From Naegleria gruberi (Eukaryota), in the NCBI GenBank assembly GCA_000004985.1, contig GG738863.1: a stretch of DNA of 64,000 nucleotides. The stretch is one strand, 5' to 3'. How positions within the stretch are numbered: position 1 is the first letter of the stretch; each line of letters opens with the position of its first letter. The notes beneath the pieces are model-generated. The model did no database searches. It worked only from the letters and a program-made list of their open reading frames with translations, and had not been told where the DNA came from. Shown here piece after piece: positions 6,654 through 53,864 of this stretch. Made by a program: the position numbers and the translations under genes.

Positions 6654-9600
6654 TTATCTTGAATTAAGAGAACATGAGTAATATTTTCTGTGTGCTTTAC
6701 CAACAAGTAGTGATAATAGACTTTGAATTTCATGCCAATTATCAATGATTTTAGGATTATAGGATTTAACTAAAATAATATTTAAAGCCTTAATAAAGCC
6801 TCTATGATTTAAATTGAGAATTGAATTGTGTCTATCCCAAAAAGTGTCATGGGGACGAAGCTTACAGGATGCTCCTGTAAGATTCGTGAATTTAGTTAAG
6901 AAATATCTTCTAAAACATTCGGTTTCTTCACAGTAGTATATGAAATGTTCCAAATCCACTTCACATTCACAGTTATCACAATAAACTTGACGAAATTGTC
7001 TAATATGTGAGTCGGTCATGTTTCTCCAAATTGACAATTTGGTTTCAGTGTCAAATCTTTGATCCATATATTTCAAATTGATATTAGTGAGGGACTGACT
7101 TTGGTTAAAAGGTAAGTCAGATTTATCCTCAACAATATCTAAATATTCTTTTCTCTGGATATCTTTGATGTATTTTCTATAGTCAAAGATGATTGTTTTC
7201 TTATTAGTATTAATTAAAATCTTTTGGTTTTGGGATAATAGTTTGGTAATATCAATCATATTTTGTCCTTGTGCACCTTCTTTTGCTAATTTATCAACTA
7301 TAATATTCTCTGGATCTTCATGCCCTTTCACTTTAACTAGATGGATATTTAAATGTTTATCCTTAATGGTACCAAAGAATTCTTCTTGAAATCCTTGAAA
7401 GTCTCCTCTGTAACTCTTTTTTAAAACTTCAATAGCAACTTGACTATCAGTATGTACATTAGCATTGGAATGATTTGGCAGCATTTTGATTGCTGTTAAT
7501 ATAGCCATGATTTCAGCCACGTTATTGGAATATTCTTCATGAATCTTGAAGGAATATTTGAAACTTCTATTTTCTGAATTATATATATTAATTCCAAATC
7601 CCACTTGGTTTTCAATTTTTGATCCATCTGTGTGAATATTAAATGAATGACCCTCCATTTGATCCAAATTAATATCATTGTCAATATCATTACATTCCTT
7701 CAATTCGATATTATATCGTTTCATAGTTTGTAGAATACTATCAAAGATATTGCTAATTCTCTTCTTTTTACCAGCATGTTTGATCCCATCTTTAATTGCC
7801 TCTCTTACTAGAGGGTTTCTACTATTTGTTAAATATAAAATAGAGTTAATATTAATTCTTTGAATGAAATCATTACAGTTAGGAATACCCAATCCTCCAT
7901 ATTCAATAGGTAAATGGAACCAATGAGTGTGACTTCTTAAATCTAAATGAGCTCTTCTTCTAATACATTTCCTAATAGCAGTATCTATTTTATCACCTAA
8001 AGCTGCTGGTATGATATTACATCTAGATAAATGTGTGAATAAACTGATACATTTAGCATGTATCACTTTTCCAATATTTGGAATTTCCATTCTCATAATA
8101 GGCATATATTTCAGTGATAGTTGAAATTTAGCAATCTTATTCATAATGTCTTCTTTTACCATTTTATCATCCCATGGATAGTGACCAAGAACTCGTACAT
8201 TTTCTTCAAGTGGTATTTTGGTATCATTAATTTTTGGTTTCATTTTCTTAATTTTCTTAGTAGGGTTCGGTTTCTGTGTTGCAACTGATTTGGATGGATT
8301 GATCTTTAGTGATAATTTCCCAAGCCATCTATTTAGGTCTTTTAATCTTGAATTATAATTGCAATTTTTAGTCGCTGTTAAATTTAGGTCATCAGCAAAA
8401 CATAGAATTCCAATATCATCTGCTTTGAGTTTTTTAGGTTTTACGGGAATATCCCACTTGTCTATACATTTATCAATAATTAATTGAGTAATACAATCGT
8501 AAACCAGGGGAGCTAATGGACAACCTTGTGGGATGCCCCTGGTTTTGTGAATGGGTCTAGATAATGAGTTTCCTATCTCTAAGCTTAATAAATGGTCTTT
8601 GTACGAGTTGAGGATAAATTCAATTAATTCATTAGGGAATTTACAATGATGTAGAGCTAATTCAATTACCTTCAGTTCAACAGAATCATAAGCACCTTCT
8701 ATATCCAAGTTTACAATTAATAGAGGGTCTTTTTCTCTATTGGCTTTATGTGCTAAAGCTGATAATACTATTCCATGATTCATTGTACTTCTGTGTGAGA
8801 TAAATGCTTGTTGTCTAATATTTATGTTCCTACTAGCCCATCTTCTTAATTTAAAAGCAATAACATTGAATAATAATCGGTAATAAATTGGTAAGATGGT
8901 TATTGGGCGAATATCATTCAATTTCTTAACTTCTCGCTTAGGTACTAATTTTACCCACCCTTGTTTCCATTCTAAGGGAATATTTCTTGTTTGGAGACAT
9001 TCATTAAATTTTTCTACTAACAGCTTTAAATTATCATCTGATAGTTTCTTAATAATATTAAATGATATAAAATCTAGTCCAGGTGTGTTAGATTTCATTC
9101 TTTGAATAGCTTTCTTAACAGAATTCATAGTTATTTTGATTTTTGATGGGCCCTTTGAAATAGTAGATGGGGCACAATTAAATTGAATTGAATCGGTTTT
9201 AGATTGGAACTTTTGCTCAAAGTAGTCAATCAATTCCTCTTCTTCAAAATCAACTTGTTTCCAGTTAATTGACTTCTCCTTAATATGTCTATCAAATTGA
9301 TATATTAATGATGAATCGTATCGATTAAATGATTCAGAAATCTTTCTCTTAATTTCCTCTGCACATCTATGATAAAGGTCTTTAATTTCAGATCTAACTC
9401 TTTCTATTTGGTCTGTATCATTGTTCTCTGAATTAATGAGATCATTCAATTCCTCTTCTTTCGACTTAATCTCTTGTCTTAATTCTGATTCATTAGTTTT
9501 AATTCGAATTCTATCATTCTTTCTTAAATTTTCAATAATAAAGGATTTAATTTTGTTATCTAATTCATTAAAGCTATCAGGAACTTCTCTGTTAATAGAT

Positions 9601-10397
9601 TCAATAAATTTTTGAATCTTTGTTGGACTAATATATGGTCTCCATGTATCATTAGTCTCTAATTCAATATCAATATAGAATGGTTGATGATCATTCTTAG
9701 TTATTGATGGTAAAATCTTCTTATTTCTAATAATAATATTATTTGAAACGAATATATGATCAGGGTGAGTTTTAGTTGTACCATCTCTTGTTTTTCTAAT
9801 GTAGGTGTATTCATCAGGAGCTATAGATTCATAAAAATTGAAAGTATCAAAGAATTCACACCACATTCTATCTCTCATTGAAGTGGGATTAATGGTATTT
9901 ATATTCGGATCTCCCGATATAATGAAATATTCTCCTTGATGTGCACTTATATACTCTATCATGGTACTTAGTATTTTATCATCATATGATTCACTCTCCT
10001 CATCATTTCTAACACTTATATAGACTGTAAAGATATTAATTGGTTTTCCTCTTGTTTCAAACTTTGTTAATTGAAGTAATCCTGGAATAAGATTGGTATT
10101 ACATAACAATCTTTTCCTTCGGTTGTTAATAAAATGTAGCAATGCAGTGCCTTTACAAGCTTTTCTGGTTCCCATTAATGAATTAAAAAAGAAATGTCCT
10201 CTTCCTGATTCGAAAGCCCTTTGTTGATCTTCTAATTTGTTAATGTGAGTTTCGGTAATGCTTATAATTTGAATATTATGTTGGTGACAAATTCCCTTAA
10301 TAGCATGAGTTAGGATCTCTTTAGTTTCTGTTTTAATAAGACCATTCACATTAAAACATCCCACTCGGAAATTGCATTTTGGATTAATCATTGGCAT
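6654..10397 (-). CDS. LINE ORF2 polyprotein: N-terminal apurinic-like endonuclease, reverse transcriptase, RNase H and a C-terminal Cys/His motif
   Basis: 1247 aa. Endonuclease/exonuclease/phosphatase-like N-terminus (CFNVNGL...SITETHI...GDPNIN). RT motifs PITILPIYYRLLFNVIA, LDIEGAYDSV, GIPQGCPLAPLVY and LCFADDLNL. RNase H motifs NIHTDGSK...AEIMAILTAI...HTDSQVAI. Then CDNCECEVDLEHFIYYCEETECF. No internal stops. Confidence 0.85.
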   Translation of the reverse strand: MPMINPKCNFRVGCFNVNGLIKTETKEILTHAIKGICHQHNIQIISITETHINKLEDQQRAFESGRGHFFFNSLMGTRKACKGTALLHFINNRRKRLLCNTNLIPGLLQLTKFETRGKPINIFTVYISVRNDEESESYDDKILSTMIEYISAHQGEYFIISGDPNINTINPTSMRDRMWCEFFDTFNFYESIAPDEYTYIRKTRDGTTKTHPDHIFVSNNIIIRNKKILPSITKNDHQPFYIDIELETNDTWRPYISPTKIQKFIESINREVPDSFNELDNKIKSFIIENLRKNDRIRIKTNESELRQEIKSKEEELNDLINSENNDTDQIERVRSEIKDLYHRCAEEIKRKISESFNRYDSSLIYQFDRHIKEKSINWKQVDFEEEELIDYFEQKFQSKTDSIQFNCAPSTISKGPSKIKITMNSVKKAIQRMKSNTPGLDFISFNIIKKLSDDNLKLLVEKFNECLQTRNIPLEWKQGWVKLVPKREVKKLNDIRPITILPIYYRLLFNVIAFKLRRWASRNINIRQQAFISHRSTMNHGIVLSALAHKANREKDPLLIVNLDIEGAYDSVELKVIELALHHCKFPNELIEFILNSYKDHLLSLEIGNSLSRPIHKTRGIPQGCPLAPLVYDCITQLIIDKCIDKWDIPVKPKKLKADDIGILCFADDLNLTATKNCNYNSRLKDLNRWLGKLSLKINPSKSVATQKPNPTKKIKKMKPKINDTKIPLEENVRVLGHYPWDDKMVKEDIMNKIAKFQLSLKYMPIMRMEIPNIGKVIHAKCISLFTHLSRCNIIPAALGDKIDTAIRKCIRRRAHLDLRSHTHWFHLPIEYGGLGIPNCNDFIQRININSILYLTNSRNPLVREAIKDGIKHAGKKKRISNIFDSILQTMKRYNIELKECNDIDNDINLDQMEGHSFNIHTDGSKIENQVGFGINIYNSENRSFKYSFKIHEEYSNNVAEIMAILTAIKMLPNHSNANVHTDSQVAIEVLKKSYRGDFQGFQEEFFGTIKDKHLNIHLVKVKGHEDPENIIVDKLAKEGAQGQNMIDITKLLSQNQKILINTNKKTIIFDYRKYIKDIQRKEYLDIVEDKSDLPFNQSQSLTNINLKYMDQRFDTETKLSIWRNMTDSHIRQFRQVYCDNCECEVDLEHFIYYCEETECFRRYFLTKFTNLTGASCKLRPHDTFWDRHNSILNLNHRGFIKALNIILVKSYNPKIIDNWHEIQSLLSLLVGKAHRKYYSCSLNSR

Positions 10398-21874: not shown

Positions 21875-24439
21875 ATGTACAATACCCAACAACAATCTTC
21901 CCCGCAACAACCAAGACTTTCATCAAAGGTTGAATTGCACATTTCATGCAGAGGATTGAAGAATGTGAGTTGTTTATGTGAAGATTTGCAATTTAATAAT
22001 TATTCGTTAATTTGTGATGATTTTGTTGATTTTATTAAATGATCATCTAATGATGATTTTATTAAATAAGATGGATTTACTTTCAAAGTCAGATCCAAAG
22101 GTTTTAGTTTATGCAGGATTTCCTCCGAATAATCCACAATACGTAAGTAAATAATTAGAAATTTCTAGAAATATTATTGGAAAGGCTTGGAAATTATTGG
22201 GCGAAACTGAATGCATCAAGGATAATTTAAATCCAAACTTTTCAACTACTTTTACAGTTGAATATTGTTTTGAAGAACTTCAACACTTGAAATTCTGTGT
22301 CTATGATATTGATAATAATACTGCCACATTATCGGATGATGATTTTATTGGAGAGACAACTACAACACTAGGTGAGTATTGAAATCTTAAGAGTTTAGAT
22401 ACCAATTTATTGAATTAAAATACAGGTGAAATTTGTGGAGCTAAAGGACAAAAATTAATTAAACATCTCTATGCCAAGGGTTCAAAGGTTTCAAGAGGTA
22501 CCATCATTGTAACTGCCGAGGAAGTTAATTCAAATGCCACTGATGATGTGGAAATTGCCTTGGCAGGTGTTACACTTCCAAAGGTATGTGTTAAATAATT
22601 TCACAGAAACTTATTCTACAATTTATTATTTAATCTTACAATAGATGGATTTTTTTGGAAAGGCAGATCCAGTACGTAATTAGTTATTAGCAGATTTATC
22701 TAACATTTGTCAAGTTTTATGTTGTACAAAAAGCATCTGAAAGTGGTCAATTCCTTTCAGTTTATCAATCTGAAACCATCATGAATAATTTAAATCCAAT
22801 TTGGAAGCCAATGCGAATTTCTTGTGCCAAATTGTGTAATGGAGATTATCATAGAAGTTTGAAAATTTCTGTATACGATTGGAATAAGCACTCTGCTCCA
22901 GATTTTATCGGAGAGGTTGAAACTAATTTGGATGCTCTTCTTAAGGCTAGTGTTTCTCTTAAACTACAAAATCCAGCAAAGAAAAAGGGAAATCATGGCG
23001 ATCTTATTGTCAAGTCCTCCAAGATTACTAAAAATCCAACCTTCTTGGAATTTTTGGCAGGTGGAATGAAAATGAACATGTTGGTTGCAGTTGACTTTAC
23101 TGCTTCAAATGGTCAACCAGAATTACCTCAATCTTTGCACTACAATAGACAAGGACAAATGAACCAATACGAACAAGCTATTAGATCTGTTGGACAAATT
23201 ATTTCTGACTATGATAGCGACAAATTGTTCCCATCTTTTGGTTATGGAGGATATTTACCAAATGGTATTACATCACACTGCTTTGCTTTGAATGGTAATC
23301 CACAAAAACCAGAATGTTTTCAAGTTGACGGAATTCTTCAAAGTTATAGACAAGCACTGTATACCGTAAAACTTTCAGGACCAACTCATTTTGCTCAAAT
23401 TATCAAAACAGCCTGTCAATATGCTTCTGTTCCAATAAGTCAATCAAACCAAGAATATTTTGTCTTGCTCATTTGTACTGATGGTATGATTAATGATATG
23501 CAGGAAACTATTGATCAAATAATTGAAGGATCAGGACTCCCACTTTCAATTATTATTGTTGGTGTTGGTGCAGCTGATTTCAGCTCTATGGAAACACTGG
23601 ATGGCGATAATGCTGCCCTCAGATCTGGCCGTACTGGAAGAACAGCTCTTCGTGATATTGTCCAATTTGTACCATTTAACAAATTTGCATCAATGCCATT
23701 TACTGCTCTCAGTAAGGAAGTTCTTGCTGAAATTCCAACCCAAGTAACTCAATTCATGAAAATGAAAAATTTAATGCCAAACCAAAGAGTAGTTATTCAG
23801 GAATATGTTCCACCTGAACCAAGCACTCCATCCACCACAACTACTCAAATGTATCCAAGCAATGATCCACCAAGAGAAAGAAGTATGTCAGAAAGTTTCA
23901 ATCCAAATACTTCCAATTCCAATCTTAATTCCATTCCAAACCAAGTTCCACAACAAGGTATTCCACAACAACAAGTTCCACCAACTTATGGAGTTCCTCC
24001 TCAACAAGGTGGTTATCCACAACAGGGTTATCCTCAACAACCAACTGGTCAACCTCAACAATATCCTCAACAACAAGGTGGTTATCCAATGCAACCTCAA
24101 CAATTTGGTGGATATCCTCAACAGCCTGTTGGTGGACAACCTCAACAATTTGGTCAACAAGTTCCACCTCAACAATATGGCCAAATCCCTCCTCAACAAT
24201 ACAGTCAAGTCCCTCCACAACAAGGTTACCCACAACAAGGTGGATATCCACAACAGGGTTATCCTCAACAACCAACTGGTCAACCTCAACAATTTGGTCA
24301 ACAAGTCCCTCCACAACAATATGGCCAAATCCCTCCTCAACAATACAGTCAAGTCCCTCCACAACAAGGCTATCCTCAACAAGTCCCACGTAATCCTCAA
24401 CAACCTGAAAATCCAACCATCCCTCAATACAAAATTTAA
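21875..24439 (+). CDS. Copine (two C2 domains plus a vWA domain) with a long P/Q/G/Y-rich C-terminal tail. Six exons.
   Basis: Exons: 21875..21964 (MYNTQQQ...[12 protein letters not shown]), 22071..22142 ([14 protein letters not shown]...), 22185..22371 ([20 protein letters not shown]...FCVYDIDN...), 22426..22583 (...[10 protein letters not shown]...), 22645..22671 (MDFFGKADP) and 22715..24439 ([13 protein letters not shown]...NNLNPIWKP...; vWA region [10 protein letters not shown]...LICTDG...[10 protein letters not shown]). Introns are 42-106 nt with GTGAGT/GTAAGT/GTATGT/GTACGT donors, and all junctions are in phase. Each junction matches the conserved copine order (SKSDP, SWAELGRTE-like, NNLNPxW). 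Confidence 0.8.
24137..24424 (+). repeat. Tandem duplication of a 144-nt (48-aa) coding unit in the copine tail, embedded in shorter GYPQQ-type repeats
   Basis: Copy 1 is 24137..24280 and copy 2 starts at 24281. Both encode [34 protein letters not shown](G)... with only a few substitutions. The antisense ORFs 23888..24427 and 23925..24416 are by-products of this repeat. Confidence 0.7.
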
Positions 24440-42900: not shown

Positions 42901-44410
42901 GGAAGCTCTTGATTCATTCCTTTCATCAGTTCCGATCGAAAGAGACGAAACAGATGAAAAGACAAGAGCCTTGTCTTCATTGAAGAAGAAGAGAAATAAT
43001 AATTCTTATAATGAATTGTTCCCATTCATTGAAGCATTCTTTGCTTTCCAATCTGGTTTCAGTGAAGAAAAGGAAGAAAAGAACTCGACATTGCTTTCTT
43101 CCATGGAAGAGCACACCCCAACATCCGCCAAGGGCTTTGGCGACAAAGCTATTATTGAAAATTTCCTTGAAAAACATAGAGAAATTTTGAATGCACAAAT
43201 TGAAGCCAATCCATCATTGCTGACCTCTACACTTTCTCTCATGATGAAGTATCCAAAATATGTTGACTTTAAGAATAAGCTCGTTTGGTTCAAGGCTAAA
43301 TTGAAGGAAGAATCAAAGAAGACTGGTGGCGTTGCTCCAATGTCTGTCAGAAGATCTCAAATATTCACTGATTCCTACTTTTATATTAATGGTTTGCTTC
43401 CAGAGGAATGTAAAGGAAAATTACAGATCAAATTTGAAGGAGAGGAAGGTTATGACGCTGGTGGTGTAAAGAGAGAATGGTTTTCAACCCTCTCCAGAGA
43501 AATGTTATATCCTGGTTATGCCTTGTTTGCACCATGCGCTGATAGAACAACCTACCATCCAAACCCTTCATCCTATGTCAATCAAGAACACTTGTCTTAT
43601 TTCAGATTCACTGGTAGAATAATTGCTATGGCCATCTATAATGAACAACCTTTGGATTGTCACTTTACCAGATCTTTCTACAAGCATATTCTTGGTATTC
43701 CAATCACTTACCATGATATTGAAAGTATTGATCCTAGCTATTACAAGAATCTCAAGTGGATGCTCACCAACAGCATTGGAGATGTTTTATTCCACACTTT
43801 CACTCATGAATTTGATGAATTTGGTAAAACAAAAGAAATTGAATTGAAACCAAATGGTAAGAATATCCCTGTTACAGATGAGAATAAGGCCGAATATGTT
43901 CGTTTAGTTACTGAGCTCAAGATGACCAAATCCATTGAAAAACAACTTGAACAATTCCTTAAGGCATTCTATGATATTATTCCAAGAAAGCTTATTCAAA
44001 TTTTCAATGAACAAGAATTGGAATTGCTCATTTCTGGTTTACCAGATATTGATATTCAAGACTTGAAGAATAACACTATTTACGGACATGGTTACACCAA
44101 GGATTCAGTCCATATCAAATGGTTCTGGAATGTTGTTGAATCATTCGGAAAGGATGATAAGGCCCTTTTACTCCAATTTGTTACTGGTACAAGTAAGGTT
44201 CCACTTGGTGGATTCTCCCAATTGATTGGTGCTAATGGTGAAAATCAATTGTTCTGCATTCAAAAAGCAAACGTTGGTTCTCAACGTTTACCAACAGCTC
44301 ACACTTGTTTCAATCAATTGGATTTGCCAGAGTATGACACTGAAGATGTTTTGAGAGAGAGATTGCTTGTGGCGTTGAGATTTGGTTCAGAAGGATTTGG
44401 TTTTGTCTAA
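39997..44410 (+). CDS. HECT-domain E3 ubiquitin ligase, HUWE1/Tom1-like. It has an acidic N-terminus, UBM-like LPxExRxEVL repeats and a C-terminal HECT domain. Two exons.
   Basis: Exon 1 39997..40243 (ATG 39997; acidic MEPFIDEENSDDEE...); 49-nt GTATGT...TATATAG intron 40244..40292; exon 2 40293..44410. C + AA gives Q, and the tracked start at 40310 is GTG. Repeats include FLDALPNEIRNEVL and LSPELRRTVLLEADDDLISMLTPDLAREAAELR. The HECT domain (...FNEQELELLISGLPDIDIQDLKNNT...LLQFVTGTSKVPLGGFSQL...LPTAHTCFNQLDLPEYDTEDVLRERLLVALRFGSEGFGFV) aligns closely to the HUWE1 HECT. Confidence 0.8.
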
Positions 44411-50497: not shown

Positions 50498-52095
50498 TTA
50501 CAAGGAAAAGCTTTCAATCATTTGCAAGAATAAATTTCTACATTGCAATCCAATAGAACTCGTATAACTAAAGACATATTTTTGTCTAGATTCGGCACCA
50601 GTGAAAACAATTACAATTTGTGAGATATTTCTCTCAGAATTGGTTAGTGTATGATCCTCAACAAACTTTACCTCGAATCTGTAGCCATATACCAAATTGG
50701 AACCCAATTCCAAATCAATCAATTCTAAATCTTCAACAATGGCCAATTGTTTCCTCTCCTTAAATTGATTCTGGATTAAGGTGGCAGTCTTGACCAATGA
50801 AGCACCAGTTTCCAACAATTGAATCATGAAATTGTCACAAATAATATCCTGATAACATTGCTGAATGGGGCTAAACATGAAAACTATTCCCGATTCACTT
50901 CCAACCTTGAATCCAAATGGTACCTTCATTGATGATCCTTCGAATATCTCAGTGTCGGTCCAAGGTAAATTCTCAGTCTTGATAAAAGTCGATTGTTGAA
51001 TAAAATTCTCATAAACTTCTCTATTTCTCGATGCACAATTACTATAATATGTAACCACATAGGCACCACTCGATCCAGAATCAATGACAGTTGTATATTG
51101 AGTTAGAAATATTCCACTTCCCTCCTCCAAATAGGAACAAACAAAATCCATAGCACTCAAATGCTTTCTAATCATGTGAGGAGTATCCTGTCCAGCATCC
51201 ACCAATGAATACATGGCTCTCTTTCTCTTTTTTTCATTTCCTGGATTGGGAGCTCCCTTTGGAATGTCCTCAAACTGCGATTGAAATTTCAAATGAAATG
51301 TAAACTCTTGCATACTAATAATTCCCAAAACTCTTTCAACTGTGAAATAATCTCTATTGATTTTCTCATTATACAAATGAGAAGGTGAATAGAAATAGAG
51401 AACAGAGTCTTTTAGTGAGATTTCCCATGTATCAAATATTCTAAATGTTCCAAAATAGGGATAATCATCAAATGTACTTGTAACTGATCCATAATCATCA
51501 GCTTTTGTCGTTCTTTCGATTGTAAATTTGTAAGTTATATACGAAAGTGCTTCCGATCCTTTGTTTTCCTCAATTTCCATGTTTAAAGTTACATCCTCTC
51601 CATCATTTAATATCGGAATTTTAACATGTCCAACTGTACAATATTAGAAAGTTGGTTTATGTTTCTAATAACTTACCAAACTAGCGAAAATTCATCATCA
51701 ATTTCGAATAATTATTATTATTAAATTATTTACCTTGTCTTGACTCAACATGTCATAATCCCAAACTTCTACAATTGCATGAGTTTCCTTTCTTTCCAAC
51801 TATTTATATTCGAAATAAATTATTCGAAAATTAGTCACTTACCGGAATGTCAAAAGTTTCATTAAACTTGGGATTTCGTGTTCTCTTGACAGGTTTAGTT
51901 TGTTTAGAATAGGCATTTCCCAACTTTACTTTTAAATACGGATCTATTTGATCTTTCTAATAACAAGAATAAAATTATTAGAAACTTACTAATCTGTTTT
52001 TGTTATTTTCATCATCCATTATCATCTTCTTCACTTACGTTTCCACTTCCGACGTTGGTGGCAGATAAAATAACCAACTTGAAAATATCATCCAT
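50498..52095 (-). CDS. C2-domain protein with a C-terminal 350-aa domain of unknown function. Multi-exon, including a putative 4-nt micro-exon.
   Basis: Model on the minus strand: E1 52039..52095 (ATG 52095-52093, MDDIFKLVILSATNVGSGN). E2 51843..51956 (KDQIDPYLKVKLGNAYSKQTKPVKRTRNPKFNETFDIP). E3 51734..51799 (LERKETHAIVEVWDYDMLSQDK). Putative E4 51677..51680 (TTTG). E5 50498..51643 (TT GGA CAT...; the tracked ORF 50498..51580 starts at an internal Met). Introns are 82, 43, 53, 43 and 33 nt long with GTAAGT/GTAAAT donors. The joined sequence reads ...MLSQDK-F-VGHVKIPILNDGEDVTL..., which completes a canonical C2 beta-sandwich. Confidence 0.55.
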
Positions 52096-52138: not shown

Positions 52139-53191
52139 TCATTTGTTTAAATAATTGACAAGTGAATAGCTCAATAAACCAGTCAAACCAAGTCCAACAA
52201 CAGCAGAACCAATCATTTTACCATAATATTTAACAGGATGATAATGTTGATAATCAATATCATAAATTCCAAACCAATTTTCAATCTTGTTTACAATGGG
52301 ATTCAAATCTCTCAGAGTTCCAATAACTTGAATGTCAAATCTGTGTTCGAAACCAATCTTTTCATAAATTGGTCTTCCTTCCATGGTTGCTTGCAATACA
52401 CAATATTGATAATTATTTAAAAGAGCAATTTCTAATAGCAGAGTCACAACCATGGAAGCATATCCTCTTCCTTGATAGTTTGGCCGTGTGGTAATGGAAA
52501 ATAGAGAAGCAGTTTCTTTTCCCTTAATAACTTGTCCACAAGAAACAACTTTTCCATCTTGTTTGACGAGAACCCATTCATAATCTTTGGATTTCAATAA
52601 ATATTGAGCATAGTATTGACTTGCTTCTTTTGGTAATTCTTCTCCTTCAAAGAATGCTTCGTAATAAGTTTCTGCAATTTCAATAGCTTCTTCAGGAGTA
52701 CTCAAAGTTTTAATTGTAAATTCCTTTCCTTGGGCTAGAATGACCCCAGATTCATTTTGTAATTTTTGTAAACTTTCCTCGTTATATCCAAAATCATTTT
52801 TCAACTTTTTCAAATTCTTTTCTCTTAAATTCCTACTCTCCTTCAAATCACATATCATTCCAGTACTAACTTCAATCCAATTAATTGGCATCTTGTCAAA
52901 TATTACTTGTTGCAATTTGTCAAACTTGCTCGTTCTATTTTTCGAGTCATACATTGGTACAAACAAGTAGACAGGTACTCCATCCGATTGTTCCCGAATA
53001 GTTTCCAATAATTGCAAGTGATTCTCACTTCTGGTAACATAATAAAGGTCAGGTACGGGCAATTTCTTGATCCCTTTTTTGAAACCAGGCATGCATTCAT
53101 TCTCATTCTCATGCAACTCAAAAATAGAGGAAAAGCTTTTAACAGTGGCTCTGTTAAAGTCAAAGAGTGAGTCCACAATGAGTCGATTCAT
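52139..53191 (-). CDS. GNAT-family N-acetyltransferase-domain protein with a C-terminal transmembrane anchor
   Basis: The tracked start at 53269 is TTG; the first ATG is at 53191. The acetyl-CoA-binding motif (VVSCGQVIKGKETASLFSITTRPNYQGRGYASMVVTLLLEIALLNNYQYCVLQATMEGRPIYEKIGF) contains the Q/R-x-x-G-x-G/A core. The C-terminal MIGSAVVGLGLTGLLSYSLVNYL is a TM helix. The N-terminal 200 aa are unassigned. An upstream exon cannot be excluded. Confidence 0.55.
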   Translation of the reverse strand: MNRLIVDSLFDFNRATVKSFSSIFELHENENECMPGFKKGIKKLPVPDLYYVTRSENHLQLLETIREQSDGVPVYLFVPMYDSKNRTSKFDKLQQVIFDKMPINWIEVSTGMICDLKESRNLREKNLKKLKNDFGYNEESLQKLQNESGVILAQGKEFTIKTLSTPEEAIEIAETYYEAFFEGEELPKEASQYYAQYLLKSKDYEWVLVKQDGKVVSCGQVIKGKETASLFSITTRPNYQGRGYASMVVTLLLEIALLNNYQYCVLQATMEGRPIYEKIGFEHRFDIQVIGTLRDLNPIVNKIENWFGIYDIDYQHYHPVKYYGKMIGSAVVGLGLTGLLSYSLVNYLNK

Positions 53192-53864
53192 TTTTTTGTA
53201 AGGAAAATTGATAATAATTGGTTTGCTCGGAGTTATGGCAGGAGTTAATTTTTCAAAATTGAAGCTCAAATTGATTGCAAATCAAAATTGAAATTCATAA
53301 AATCACAGTTTGCAATTATTATAGCAAGACTCAATTCTTAAATTATACAAAGAATTAGTGTGGACATTGAGCTTAATGGCTTCGTTGCGTATTAGTTTAA
53401 GGTTGCTTTTCATTTTACCTTAACTGCCTCATAACTAATTCCAAAGTCATTTCTCAATTCTGTTCCAACAAAATTCAATCTGGTTTTTCTTGATAGAAAG
53501 TTTTATTGATTTCAGTATGAAACTTCGATCTTTCAACAAAAAGCTCATTGATCGCGGACATATTTCGATAAAGAGTTCGAAATGACGTGAAAGAAATTCT
53601 TCAGGAATGCATTGGAAGTTTAAACTTGTTGAATTGTTGAGAGTGAATTTGGTTAATTGGTGATAGAGATGAAATCACGTGATTGATGTAAACAACCTAG
53701 CACAAAATCTTGATTCATTGTTTAATTTCGAATAATTGTAGTTTCTCCAAATACTATAATAAGCAACATGTAATTTTGAATTACTTCAGAATTGTTTCTC
53801 ACACACGTTTATTTAAATCAAAATTGTTAATTTTTCAAAAGAATTCTCTAAATATTGAGCAAAA

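What the first reader, a model, noticed from the sequence alone, without database searches (positions are those of the whole stretch)
51644..51733. Putative 4-nt micro-exon (TTTG) flanked by two 40-55-nt introns in the C2-domain gene
Exon 3 ends ...VEVWDYDMLSQDK in phase 0 at a GTAAAT donor (51733). The large 3' exon begins after the TGTACAG acceptor with TT-GGA-CAT (VGHVKIPIL...), which needs one preceding nucleotide. No single intron reconciles the phases. Using the CGCTAG acceptor (ending 51681) and the immediately following GTAAGT donor (51676-51671) leaves a 4-nt exon TTTG (51677..51680). That inserts exactly one Phe and restores frame, giving ...DYDMLSQDK-F-VGHVKIPIL.... This is the conserved C2 strand (D.D...DDFIG.V.IPL), so protein logic supports the micro-exon. 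Exons this short are rare and usually need special recognition, and here both flanking introns are of this genome's standard 40-55-nt size.
Basis: inference. Interest (0 to 1): 0.5.

Follow-up and report, generated by a model that had tools for sequence, protein, structure and literature searches.

The report
Two conserved 4-nt micro-exons in Naegleria
A small C2-domain gene of the amoeba Naegleria gruberi needs a four-base exon (TTTG) between two ordinary short introns to stay in frame. Related species support this and show a second four-base exon in the same gene; the kind of feature is known from plants and animals, was not found reported for this group, and is missing from the public gene models seen here.

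Summary
On the minus strand, exon 3 ends at 51734 (…SQDK, phase 0). It is followed by a 53-nt intron (GTAAAT…CGCTAG), TTTG (51680-51677), a 43-nt intron (GTAAGT…TGTACAG) and the last exon (51633-50498).

The window is Naegleria gruberi. Four related loci back the 4-nt exon:
- A 99%-identical strain keeps TTTG and all splice dinucleotides, although the flanking introns have changed.
- N. fowleri and N. lovaniensis have cag|ATGT|gtaagt at the same codon, inside otherwise unalignable introns.
- A third Naegleria-like species has no introns here and reads AAG-TACA-TTGGT in one open frame.
- Willaertia magna has only the downstream phase-1 intron.

All products have the same length. The one single-intron alternative (donor GTCAAG at 51744) drops five residues that the intronless orthologue encodes, and costs 13 bits of C2 score.

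New here: "intron 1" hides a second 4-nt exon (ATTA, 51993-51990; ACAA or ACGA in the other species), with the same phase-0/phase-1 layout.

No transcript data were available. Splicing order is inferred: each short intron recognised on its own, the two removed one after the other.

Verdict: a real, probably constitutive micro-exon. It is a new member of a known kind, and the N. fowleri gene models seen here omit it.

The parts
52039..52095 (-). Exon 1: ATG...GGA AAC (MDDIFKLVILSATNVGSGN), ends in phase 0
   Evidence: aligns without gaps with exon 1 of four orthologous loci
51994..52038 (-). Intron 1a, 45 nt, GTAAGT...AAACAG, phase 0. Found in Naegleria; absent from Willaertia.
   Evidence: counterparts in L001, L004 and L006; Willaertia has no intron at this position
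51990..51993 (-). Micro-exon 1, ATTA (Ile plus the first base of Asn). It is conserved as ACAA or ACGA in the other Naegleria loci. Its use in N. gruberi is likely but not certain.
   Evidence: In N. fowleri and N. lovaniensis it is the only length-preserving solution. ACA versus ACG is a synonymous difference.
51944..51989 (-). Intron 1b, 46 nt, GTAAGT...AAATAG, phase 1, at the same position as the first intron of Willaertia. It contains two earlier AGs (ending 51957 and 51953) that could act as alternative acceptors.
51843..51943 (-). Exon 2 (AT CCG TAT ... ATT CCG; -NPYLKVKLG...FDIP). With the alternative single 82-nt intron it would start at 51956.
51800..51842 (-). Intron 2, 43 nt, phase 0, shared with all orthologues including Willaertia
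51734..51799 (-). Exon 3 (LERKETHAIVEVWDYDMLSQDK), ends in phase 0
51681..51733 (-). Intron 3a, 53 nt, GTAAAT...CGCTAG, phase 0. Present in N. gruberi, N. fowleri and N. lovaniensis; absent from Willaertia and from L001.
51677..51680 (-). Micro-exon 2 (the finding): TTTG = Phe codon plus the first base of Val. It supplies the hydrophobic residue of the C2 motif D-K-F-V-G.
   Evidence: orthologous ATGT in N. fowleri and N. lovaniensis, TACA in the intronless L001
51634..51676 (-). Intron 3b, 43 nt, GTAAGT...(CTAAT)...TGTACAG, phase 1, at the same position as the third intron of Willaertia
50498..51633 (-). Last exon (TT GGA CAT ... TAA): the end of the C2 domain plus a ~360-residue region that matches no Pfam family
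51739..51744 (-). GTCAAG, the weak alternative donor (phase 1) of the only in-frame single-intron rival model

Best explanation
TTTG (51680-51677, minus strand) is a real 4-nucleotide coding exon of a Naegleria gruberi gene. The gene encodes an N-terminal C2 domain followed by a ~360-residue region of unknown fold. The micro-exon lies between a phase-0 intron (53 nt) and a phase-1 intron (43 nt), both with ordinary GT-AG signals.

Including it adds TTT-G to the mRNA. That gives ...DYDMLSQDK-F-VGHVKIPIL..., keeps the frame, and supplies the buried hydrophobic residue of a C2 strand. Every other outcome (skipping the micro-exon, or retaining either intron) meets a stop codon within about 12 codons.

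The same gene has a second 4-nt exon with the same phase layout: ATTA at 51993-51990, giving ...GSGN-I-NPYLKV....

In each pair the downstream phase-1 intron is shared with Willaertia magna, so it predates the split of the two genera. The upstream phase-0 intron, 4 nt away, was seen only in Naegleria.

Inferred mechanism, not shown here: introns this short are recognised individually (intron definition). A 3' splice site and a 5' splice site only 4 nt apart cannot both be occupied at once, so the two introns are removed one after the other. Either order leaves a normal substrate for the second step.
For: Shown directly:
- Anatomy and frame.
- The organism is N. gruberi: a HECT ORF in the window is 100% identical to an NCBI N. 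gruberi protein.
- A 99.6%-identical strain from a metagenome (L002) has 8 substitutions and a 5-nt deletion in the 187 nt of the four flanking introns, and none in exons 1-3 or the micro-exons. Every splice dinucleotide is kept, including the 3b acceptor changed from gtacAG to gaatAG.
- N. fowleri (L004) and N. lovaniensis (L006) have cag|ATGT|gtaagt at the same codon, giving DK-M-LAHVKIPIL. The introns are 161/76 and 60/91 nt long. The only conserved intronic island is the 15-nt block CACAG-ATGT-GTAAGT.
- A third Naegleria-like locus (L001) has no intron here and reads AAG TAC ATT GGT (K-Y-I-G) in one ORF, so exactly 4 nt lie between the same codons. On a neighbour-joining tree it groups with N. 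fowleri, which makes this a derived loss of both introns.
- Willaertia has one phase-1 intron, in the codon aligned with G|TT, and an annotated product of equal length, DM-I-LG.
- Enumeration shows the micro-exon is the only model that preserves length at both sites in all Naegleria loci.
- Pfam C2 scores 64.7 bits with the micro-exon against 51.7 with the alternative donor. For N. fowleri, the two-micro-exon model scores 51.9 bits against 13.8 for the public model CAG4711413.1.
- A whole-window blind scan found only these two sites.

From the literature:
- Coding micro-exons of 1-15 nt are conserved, widely misannotated, absorbed into one exon in lineages that lost the introns, and thought too small for spliceosomes to sit on both introns at once (PMC8831610).
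- Micro-exons flanked by 49-58-nt introns are spliced without PRP-40 in C. elegans, consistent with intron definition (PMC8378409).
Against: - No transcript evidence. No protein matching the spliced product is in the 15-billion-sequence collection, and a spliced-junction pattern gave only a chance hit in JGI metagenomes.
- Intron 3a has a slightly off-consensus donor (GTAAAT) and no CTAAT-type branch motif; the best candidates are TTGAT-like.
- In N. fowleri and N. lovaniensis, a single long intron from a donor 4 nt downstream (GTAA|GT...) would also keep frame and length at this site. For those two species taken alone, the micro-exon is not the only solution.
- At site 1 in N. gruberi, a single 82-nt intron (acceptor ending at 51957) is also in frame and scores 2 bits better on Pfam. 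That acceptor is also the first AG after the CTAAT motif.
- Splicing order and constitutive use are inferences.
Confidence: 0.85

Rival explanations
1. There is a single 111-nt intron from the weak donor GTCAAG (51744, phase 1) to the TGTACAG acceptor. TTTG and its flanking splice-like motifs are chance intronic sequence. The protein reads ...DYDML-I-GHVKIPIL....
For: It is the only in-frame single GT-AG intron at this site. The same donor exists in N. fowleri, in GGT CAA.
Against: - It removes SQDKF, which the intronless L001 encodes in one ORF (SQDKY) and which Willaertia matches in length.
- The donor is absent in N. lovaniensis, which has GGA CAA.
- The C2 score falls from 64.7 to 51.7 bits.
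- GTCAAG departs from the donors of plausible introns in the window at positions +3, +5 and +6.
- It does not explain why AG-N4-GTAAGT is conserved inside diverged introns.
Confidence: 0.05
2. Non-canonical or shifted splicing: a single intron beginning 4 nt downstream of the annotated donor. The exon would end ...AAG GTA A, giving K-V-I-G. That donor is AT in N. gruberi and GT in N. fowleri and N. lovaniensis.
For: Because the consensus GTAAGT carries a second GT at +5, the +4 donor is available and keeps frame and length in N. fowleri and N. lovaniensis at site 2, and in N. gruberi and L001 at site 1.
Against: - At the site in question, N. gruberi and strain L002 have GTAAAT, so this would need an AT-AG intron.
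- At site 1 it fails in N. fowleri and N. lovaniensis, which have GTAAGA.
- It does not explain the conserved CACAG-ATGT-GTAAGT island.
Confidence: 0.04
3. The 5' part of the gene is decaying or is not productively spliced. The real product is then the 360-residue ORF starting at MEIEENKG (51580), and the apparent micro-exons carry no function.
For: No N. gruberi protein for this gene is in the searched collection. Prokaryote-style gene calling on metagenome contigs reports only the 360-residue ORF. N. lovaniensis has a 1-nt frameshift further downstream.
Against: - The C2-coding exons and micro-exons show no substitution between two N. gruberi strains, while the introns do.
- The C2 part is 66-70% identical between N. 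gruberi and the other Naegleria lineages (N. fowleri, N. lovaniensis, L001), with no gaps.
- Splice signals are intact at every intron in five loci.
Confidence: 0.04

Closest known systems
Ultra-short (1-15 nt) coding micro-exons of land plants (Yu et al. 2022, PMC8831610), e.g. the 1-nt exon of APC11 and a size-4 cluster in RECQ3
   Same: A few coding nucleotides lie between two canonical GT-AG introns. Size, phase and position are conserved across species. They sit inside a conserved protein domain and are missed or mis-modelled by annotation pipelines. In lineages that lost the introns, the nucleotides are absorbed into one large exon, as in L001 here.
   Different: This is a different eukaryotic supergroup (Heterolobosea, Discoba) with an intron-poor genome. 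The flanking introns are very short (43-53 nt). There are two micro-exons of identical size and phase layout in one small gene. The plant cases have RNA-seq or RT-PCR proof; this one has none.
Animal micro-exons flanked by very short introns that are spliced independently of PRP-40 (C. elegans tcer-1; PMC8378409)
   Same: The exon is too small for exon definition. Introns of about 50-60 nt allow recognition by intron definition without special factors.
   Different: The animal micro-exons studied are mostly 3-27 nt, keep the frame, and are alternatively spliced and regulated in neurons. This one is 4 nt, shifts the frame if skipped, and is probably constitutive.
Recursive splice sites (ratchet points, AG|GTAAGT) of long Drosophila and vertebrate introns (from my own knowledge)
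   Same: A 3' splice site is followed almost at once by a 5' splice site, and the two splicing reactions must be sequential.
   Different: Recursive sites leave zero nucleotides (or a discarded recursive exon) and serve to remove very long introns stepwise. Here 4 nt stay in the mRNA and both introns are very short.
Stwintrons (spliceosomal twin introns) of filamentous fungi (from my own knowledge)
   Same: Two closely coupled short introns are excised in consecutive reactions.
   Different: In a stwintron the inner intron interrupts a splice signal of the outer one, and nothing between them stays in the mRNA. Here the two introns are independent and are separated by coding sequence.

Membership tests
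Ultra-short coding micro-exon (15 nt or less) between two spliceosomal introns | A canonical 3' splice site directly upstream and a canonical 5' splice site directly downstream of the short segment | tested here: met
   cgcTAG|TTTG|GTAAGT, with introns of 53 and 43 nt that begin GT and end AG. The same holds for ATTA.
Ultra-short coding micro-exon (15 nt or less) between two spliceosomal introns | Inclusion is needed to keep the reading frame and the homology of the product | tested here: met
   Skipping or retention gives stop codons (read from the sequence). It is the only length-preserving model. C2 scores 64.7 against 51.7 bits.
Ultra-short coding micro-exon (15 nt or less) between two spliceosomal introns | Size, phase and position conserved in orthologues | tested here: met
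   4 nt with phase 0/1 in N. gruberi (two strains), N. fowleri and N. lovaniensis; 4 nt absorbed into the exon in the intronless L001.
Ultra-short coding micro-exon (15 nt or less) between two spliceosomal introns | Presence of the segment in mature mRNA (junction reads or cDNA) | not testable with these tools
   No spliced product is in the protein collection. The junction pattern search gave only a chance hit.
Recursive splice site (zero-nucleotide exon) | AG and GT directly juxtaposed, with nothing retained in the mRNA | tested here: not met
   Four nucleotides separate AG and GT, and they are required for the frame.
Stwintron | The inner intron interrupts a splice signal of the outer intron, and its removal regenerates that signal | tested here: not met
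   Both introns have complete signals of their own. Removing both plus the 4 nt as one unit breaks the frame.
C2 domain (Pfam PF00168) | Score above the Pfam gathering threshold (22 bits) | tested here: met
   64.2-67.1 bits for the spliced N-terminus.

The most novel reading that the evidence does not exclude
The two micro-exons may not be independent accidents. In both, a phase-0 intron seen only in Naegleria lies exactly 4 nt upstream of an older phase-1 intron shared with Willaertia. That could be the footprint of a specific process. One option is intron gain targeted next to an existing 5' splice site. Another follows from the observation that a donor 4 nt downstream has the same frame effect as including a 4-nt exon: a donor shift later compensated by exonisation of 4 intronic nucleotides. 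Alternatively, or in addition, skipping either micro-exon shifts the frame, so it could act as an on/off switch for the protein.
Probability: 0.12. Interest if true: 0.7.

Novelty: new member of a known kind. Interest (0 to 1): 0.45.

Why it matters
- **Gene models.** It corrects a gene that is missing or wrong in the public annotations I could see. No N. gruberi protein for it is in the searched collection, and both N. fowleri models lack an intact C2 domain. N. fowleri is a human pathogen.
- **Range of the phenomenon.** It suggests that conserved exons of a few nucleotides also occur in Discoba, in an intron-poor genome with 40-60-nt introns. My full-text searches found no report of micro-exons in Naegleria.
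- **A test case.** It is a clean natural substrate for studying how two spliceosomes deal with splice sites 4 nt apart under intron definition.
- **Intron evolution.** Two such exons in one gene, each made of an older and a lineage-restricted intron, form a small but sharp data point on intron gain and loss.
- **Limits.** It is not a new kind of biology, and it still needs RNA confirmation.

Tried and rejected
- **More orthologues.** A search of JGI metagenome contigs found none. A profile search returned the same four proteins.
- **Spliced-junction search.** A degenerate junction pattern searched in metagenome contigs gave one unrelated chance match, L007.
- **Exact look-up of my spliced proteins** (N. 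gruberi 455 and 458 aa, N. fowleri 452 aa, N. lovaniensis 168 aa): none is in the collection.
- **N. lovaniensis model length.** The annotated N. lovaniensis C2 model has the same length (168 aa) as my two-micro-exon model. This is not diagnostic, because 8,943 GT-AG combinations give that length.
- **N. gruberi's own gene table.** Look-ups through neighbouring proteins found nothing on record.
- **RNA structure.** Folds around both micro-exons are no more stable than shuffled sequence, z = 0.4 and 0.8.
- **Protein structure.** AlphaFold2 on the 3' exon gave pLDDT 43, too poor for a fold search, so the C-terminal region stays uncharacterised.
- **Counting YAG-N4-GTAAGT in the window.** Two of the 30 GTAAGT in the window have YAG-N4 in front of them, against my rough hand estimate of about one by chance. 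That count alone is weak, so I replaced it with the frame-aware scan.
- **Pfam at site 1.** Scores of 64.7, 67.1 and 66.2 bits do not separate the alternative models there.

Full report
**1. Observation**

The gene lies on the minus strand. Reading 52600-50800 and locating the landmarks by script confirms every coordinate in the finding:
- exon 3 ends ...GAC AAG at 51734 in phase 0
- GTAAAT starts at 51733
- CGCTAG ends at 51681
- TTTG is 51680-51677
- GTAAGT is 51676-51671
- TGTACAG ends at 51634
- the last exon starts TT GGA CAT at 51633 and runs to a TAA at 50500-50498

The two introns are 53 and 43 nt. A crude scan for introns that join long open frames elsewhere in the window gives mostly 38-65-nt introns. 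Their donors are GTAAGT, GTATGT, GTAGGT or GTAAAT, often with a (T)CTAAT motif 10-30 nt before the AG. Both flanking introns are therefore ordinary for this genome.

**2. Organism and gene**

A HECT-domain ORF in the window (43061-44410) is 100% identical to an NCBI 'predicted protein [Naegleria gruberi]'. The large ORFs carry eukaryotic domains such as copine, Tcf25, INCENP and ARID.

The spliced product has an N-terminal C2 domain (Pfam PF00168, 64 bits). It is followed by about 360 residues with no Pfam match. An AlphaFold2 model of that part was too poor to use (pLDDT 43).

Only four related protein clusters exist among 5.8 billion sequences:
- a 99% relative from a metagenome (loci L002 and L003)
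- a 71% relative from another metagenome (L001)
- a 71% relative whose cluster contains N. fowleri and N. lovaniensis proteins (L004 and L006)
- Willaertia magna ABK040_007908 at 44-49% (L005)

No N. gruberi protein for this gene was returned, and I could not see N. gruberi's own gene table.

**3. Comparative test of the TTTG micro-exon**

*Strain L002.* It has tgctag|TTTG|gtaagt...tgaatag|TTGGAC. Against the window there are 8 substitutions and a 5-nt deletion in the 187 nt of the four introns that flank the micro-exons. There are none in exons 1-3 or in the micro-exons, and all GT and AG dinucleotides are kept. This holds even at the 3b acceptor, where two of the four bases before the AG changed.

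*N. fowleri.* It reads GAT AAA|gtaagt...(161 nt)...ccacag|ATGT|gtaagt...(76 nt)...atcaaag|TG GCT CAT GTG AAA.

*N. lovaniensis.* It has the same ATGT, between introns of 60 and 91 nt. When the two species are aligned, the only conserved block inside the intronic stretch is CACAG-ATGT-GTAAGT.

*L001.* It has no intron here. AGT CAA GAC AAG TAC ATT GGT CAC ATT AAA is one open frame, so exactly four nucleotides (TACA) lie where N. gruberi has TTTG. A neighbour-joining tree places L001 with N. fowleri. The simplest reading is that L001 lost both introns together. That is what happens to plant micro-exons in lineages that lost their introns (PMC8831610). It is also the nearest thing to a natural cDNA available here.

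*Willaertia.* It has one phase-1 intron, ATA C|gtaagt...aatag|TT GGT, in the codon that aligns with G|TT. There is no intron 4 nt upstream.

The products align without gaps: DK-F-VGH, DK-Y-IGH, DK-M-LAH and DM-I-LGT.

**4. Rival models**

I enumerated every GT/GC-AG single-intron model and every two-intron model with a middle exon of 15 nt or less, between fixed protein anchors, in six loci.

*N. gruberi, this site.* There is one single-intron solution: donor GTCAAG at 51744, giving DYDML-I-GHV, 5 residues shorter. There are two two-intron solutions. One is TTTG. The other is an 8-nt variant that needs two poor donors and also shortens the protein.

*The GTCAAG model.* It deletes residues that L001 encodes in a continuous ORF. 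It is impossible in N. lovaniensis, which has GGA CAA. It costs 13 bits of C2 score.

*A donor 4 nt downstream.* This is available wherever the donor is GTAAGT, because that hexamer carries a second GT. It keeps frame and length in N. fowleri and N. lovaniensis. It fails in N. gruberi and L002 (GTAAAT), and it fails at the other site in N. fowleri and N. lovaniensis (GTAAGA).

Only the 4-nt-exon model works at every Naegleria locus and at both sites.

A frame-aware blind scan of both strands of the window for the whole two-intron pattern found no decoy outside this gene.

**5. A second micro-exon**

What looks like a single 82-nt first intron (52038-51957) contains aaacag|ATTA|gtaagt (51993-51990).

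*Other Naegleria loci.* All have the same arrangement:
- L001: gcatag|ACAA|gtaggt
- N. fowleri: tgttag|ACGA|gtatgt
- N. lovaniensis: tcaaag|ACAA|gtatgt

In each, the next exon begins AT CC(N) TAT in phase 1. The products are K-T-N-PYLKV, and ACA versus ACG is a synonymous difference.

*N. fowleri and N. lovaniensis.* No other model preserves the length. In N. fowleri the frame upstream of the acceptor is closed by TAA.

*Willaertia.* It again has only the downstream phase-1 intron (CAC A|gtaagt...aaaag|AA CCA TAT) and a product of equal length.

*N. gruberi.* The conserved model uses the acceptor aaatag ending at 51944 and gives GSGN-I-NPYLKV. Two other in-frame options exist: skipping ATTA with the acceptor ttattag at 51957 (GSGN-KDQID-PYLKV), or ATTA with the acceptor agaaag at 51953. 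Pfam does not separate them (64.7, 67.1 and 66.2 bits). The ttattag AG is also the first AG after the CTAAT motif of intron 1b. I put use of ATTA in N. gruberi at about two in three.

**6. How it probably works (inferred)**

Each intron has complete signals of its own and is of a size handled by intron definition. In C. elegans, micro-exons flanked by introns of about 50-60 nt no longer need PRP-40, which the authors explain in the same way (PMC8378409).

A 3' splice site and a 5' splice site 4 nt apart cannot both be occupied, so the two introns compete and are removed one after the other. This has been argued for plant micro-exons (PMC8831610). Either order works. Removing 3b first leaves ...cgctag|TTTGTTGGAC as a normal 3' splice site. 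Removing 3a first leaves GACAAGTTTG|GTAAGT as a normal 5' splice site.

No RNA structure stands out around either micro-exon (z = 0.4 and 0.8).

Every mis-splicing outcome meets a stop codon quickly, so only the double splice yields the protein. Whether this is used for regulation is unknown.

**7. Evolution**

Introns 1b, 2 and 3b are shared with Willaertia. Introns 1a and 3a were seen only in Naegleria. With one outgroup, gain in Naegleria and loss in Willaertia cannot be told apart. Why both pairs are spaced by exactly 4 nt, with the same phases, is unexplained.

**8. Comparison with what is known, and novelty**

This is a member of the known class of ultra-short coding micro-exons. It meets the structural, frame and conservation criteria. 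The one criterion I could not test is presence in mRNA. It is not a recursive splice site and not a stwintron.

Full-text searches for Naegleria together with microexon or micro-exon found nothing relevant.

Public N. fowleri models miss it:
- FDP41_002714 starts inside intron 3b.
- CAG4711413.1 skips exon 2 and uses a 13-nt exon (ATGTGTAAGTTCA). In N. lovaniensis that exon is closed by TAG. The model scores only 13.8 bits on C2.

**Verdict.** It is a new member of a known kind, of moderate interest.

Noticed in passing
window 51990-51993 (minus strand), inside the apparent 82-nt first intron 52038-51957: A second 4-nt micro-exon (cag|ATTA|gtaagt) with the same phase-0/phase-1 layout. It is conserved as ACAA or ACGA in L001, N. 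fowleri and N. lovaniensis. In N. gruberi an in-frame single-intron alternative also exists.
   Followed up: yes
L004 2839-3125 (N. fowleri); proteins P0125 and P0127: Both public N. fowleri models of this gene look wrong. FDP41_002714 starts at an ATG inside intron 3b. CAG4711413.1 skips exon 2 and uses a 13-nt exon (ATGTGTAAGTTCA|gtaatt), and its C2 score is 13.8 bits against 51.9 for the two-micro-exon model.
   Followed up: yes
L006 about 2600-2655 (N. lovaniensis PYSW02000017.1): A 1-nt deletion relative to N. fowleri (KDS-LLYFYSPSH becomes KDSFSTFIH...) splits the gene into two annotated models of 168 and 167 aa. I could not tell an assembly error from a real frameshift.
   Followed up: partly
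window 51974-51984 and 51954-51964 (minus strand), intron 1b: An 11-bp inverted repeat (UUUCUAAUAAU / GUUAUUAGAAA) pairs the CTAAT branch-like motif with the two upstream alternative acceptor AGs. The fold is not more stable than shuffled sequence, and the repeat is partly kept in strain L002.
   Followed up: partly
window 22645-22671 (plus strand), copine gene: A 27-nt exon ([36 protein letters not shown]) lies between a 61-nt and a 43-nt intron in the second C2 domain of the copine gene. Small exons are therefore not unique to the gene studied.
   Followed up: partly
window 6654-10397 (minus strand): A 1247-residue ORF with reverse-transcriptase and RNase H domains, presumably a retrotransposon.
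   Followed up: no
L004 1129-2118 and L006 542-1516, compared with window 22781-24439: In N. fowleri and N. lovaniensis a copine / vWA-TerF-like gene lies directly upstream of the C2 gene. In N. gruberi the immediate upstream ORF (52139-53269) is different, and the only copine ORF found in the window is about 28 kb away. I did not test whether it is the orthologue.
   Followed up: no
window 52034 and L004 2876, L006 2230, L001 272: A consensus GTAAGT donor carries a second GT 4 nt downstream. A '+4 donor plus micro-exon skipping' isoform would therefore have the same frame as '+0 donor plus 4-nt exon'. This may be relevant to how such exons arise or are bypassed.
   Followed up: partly
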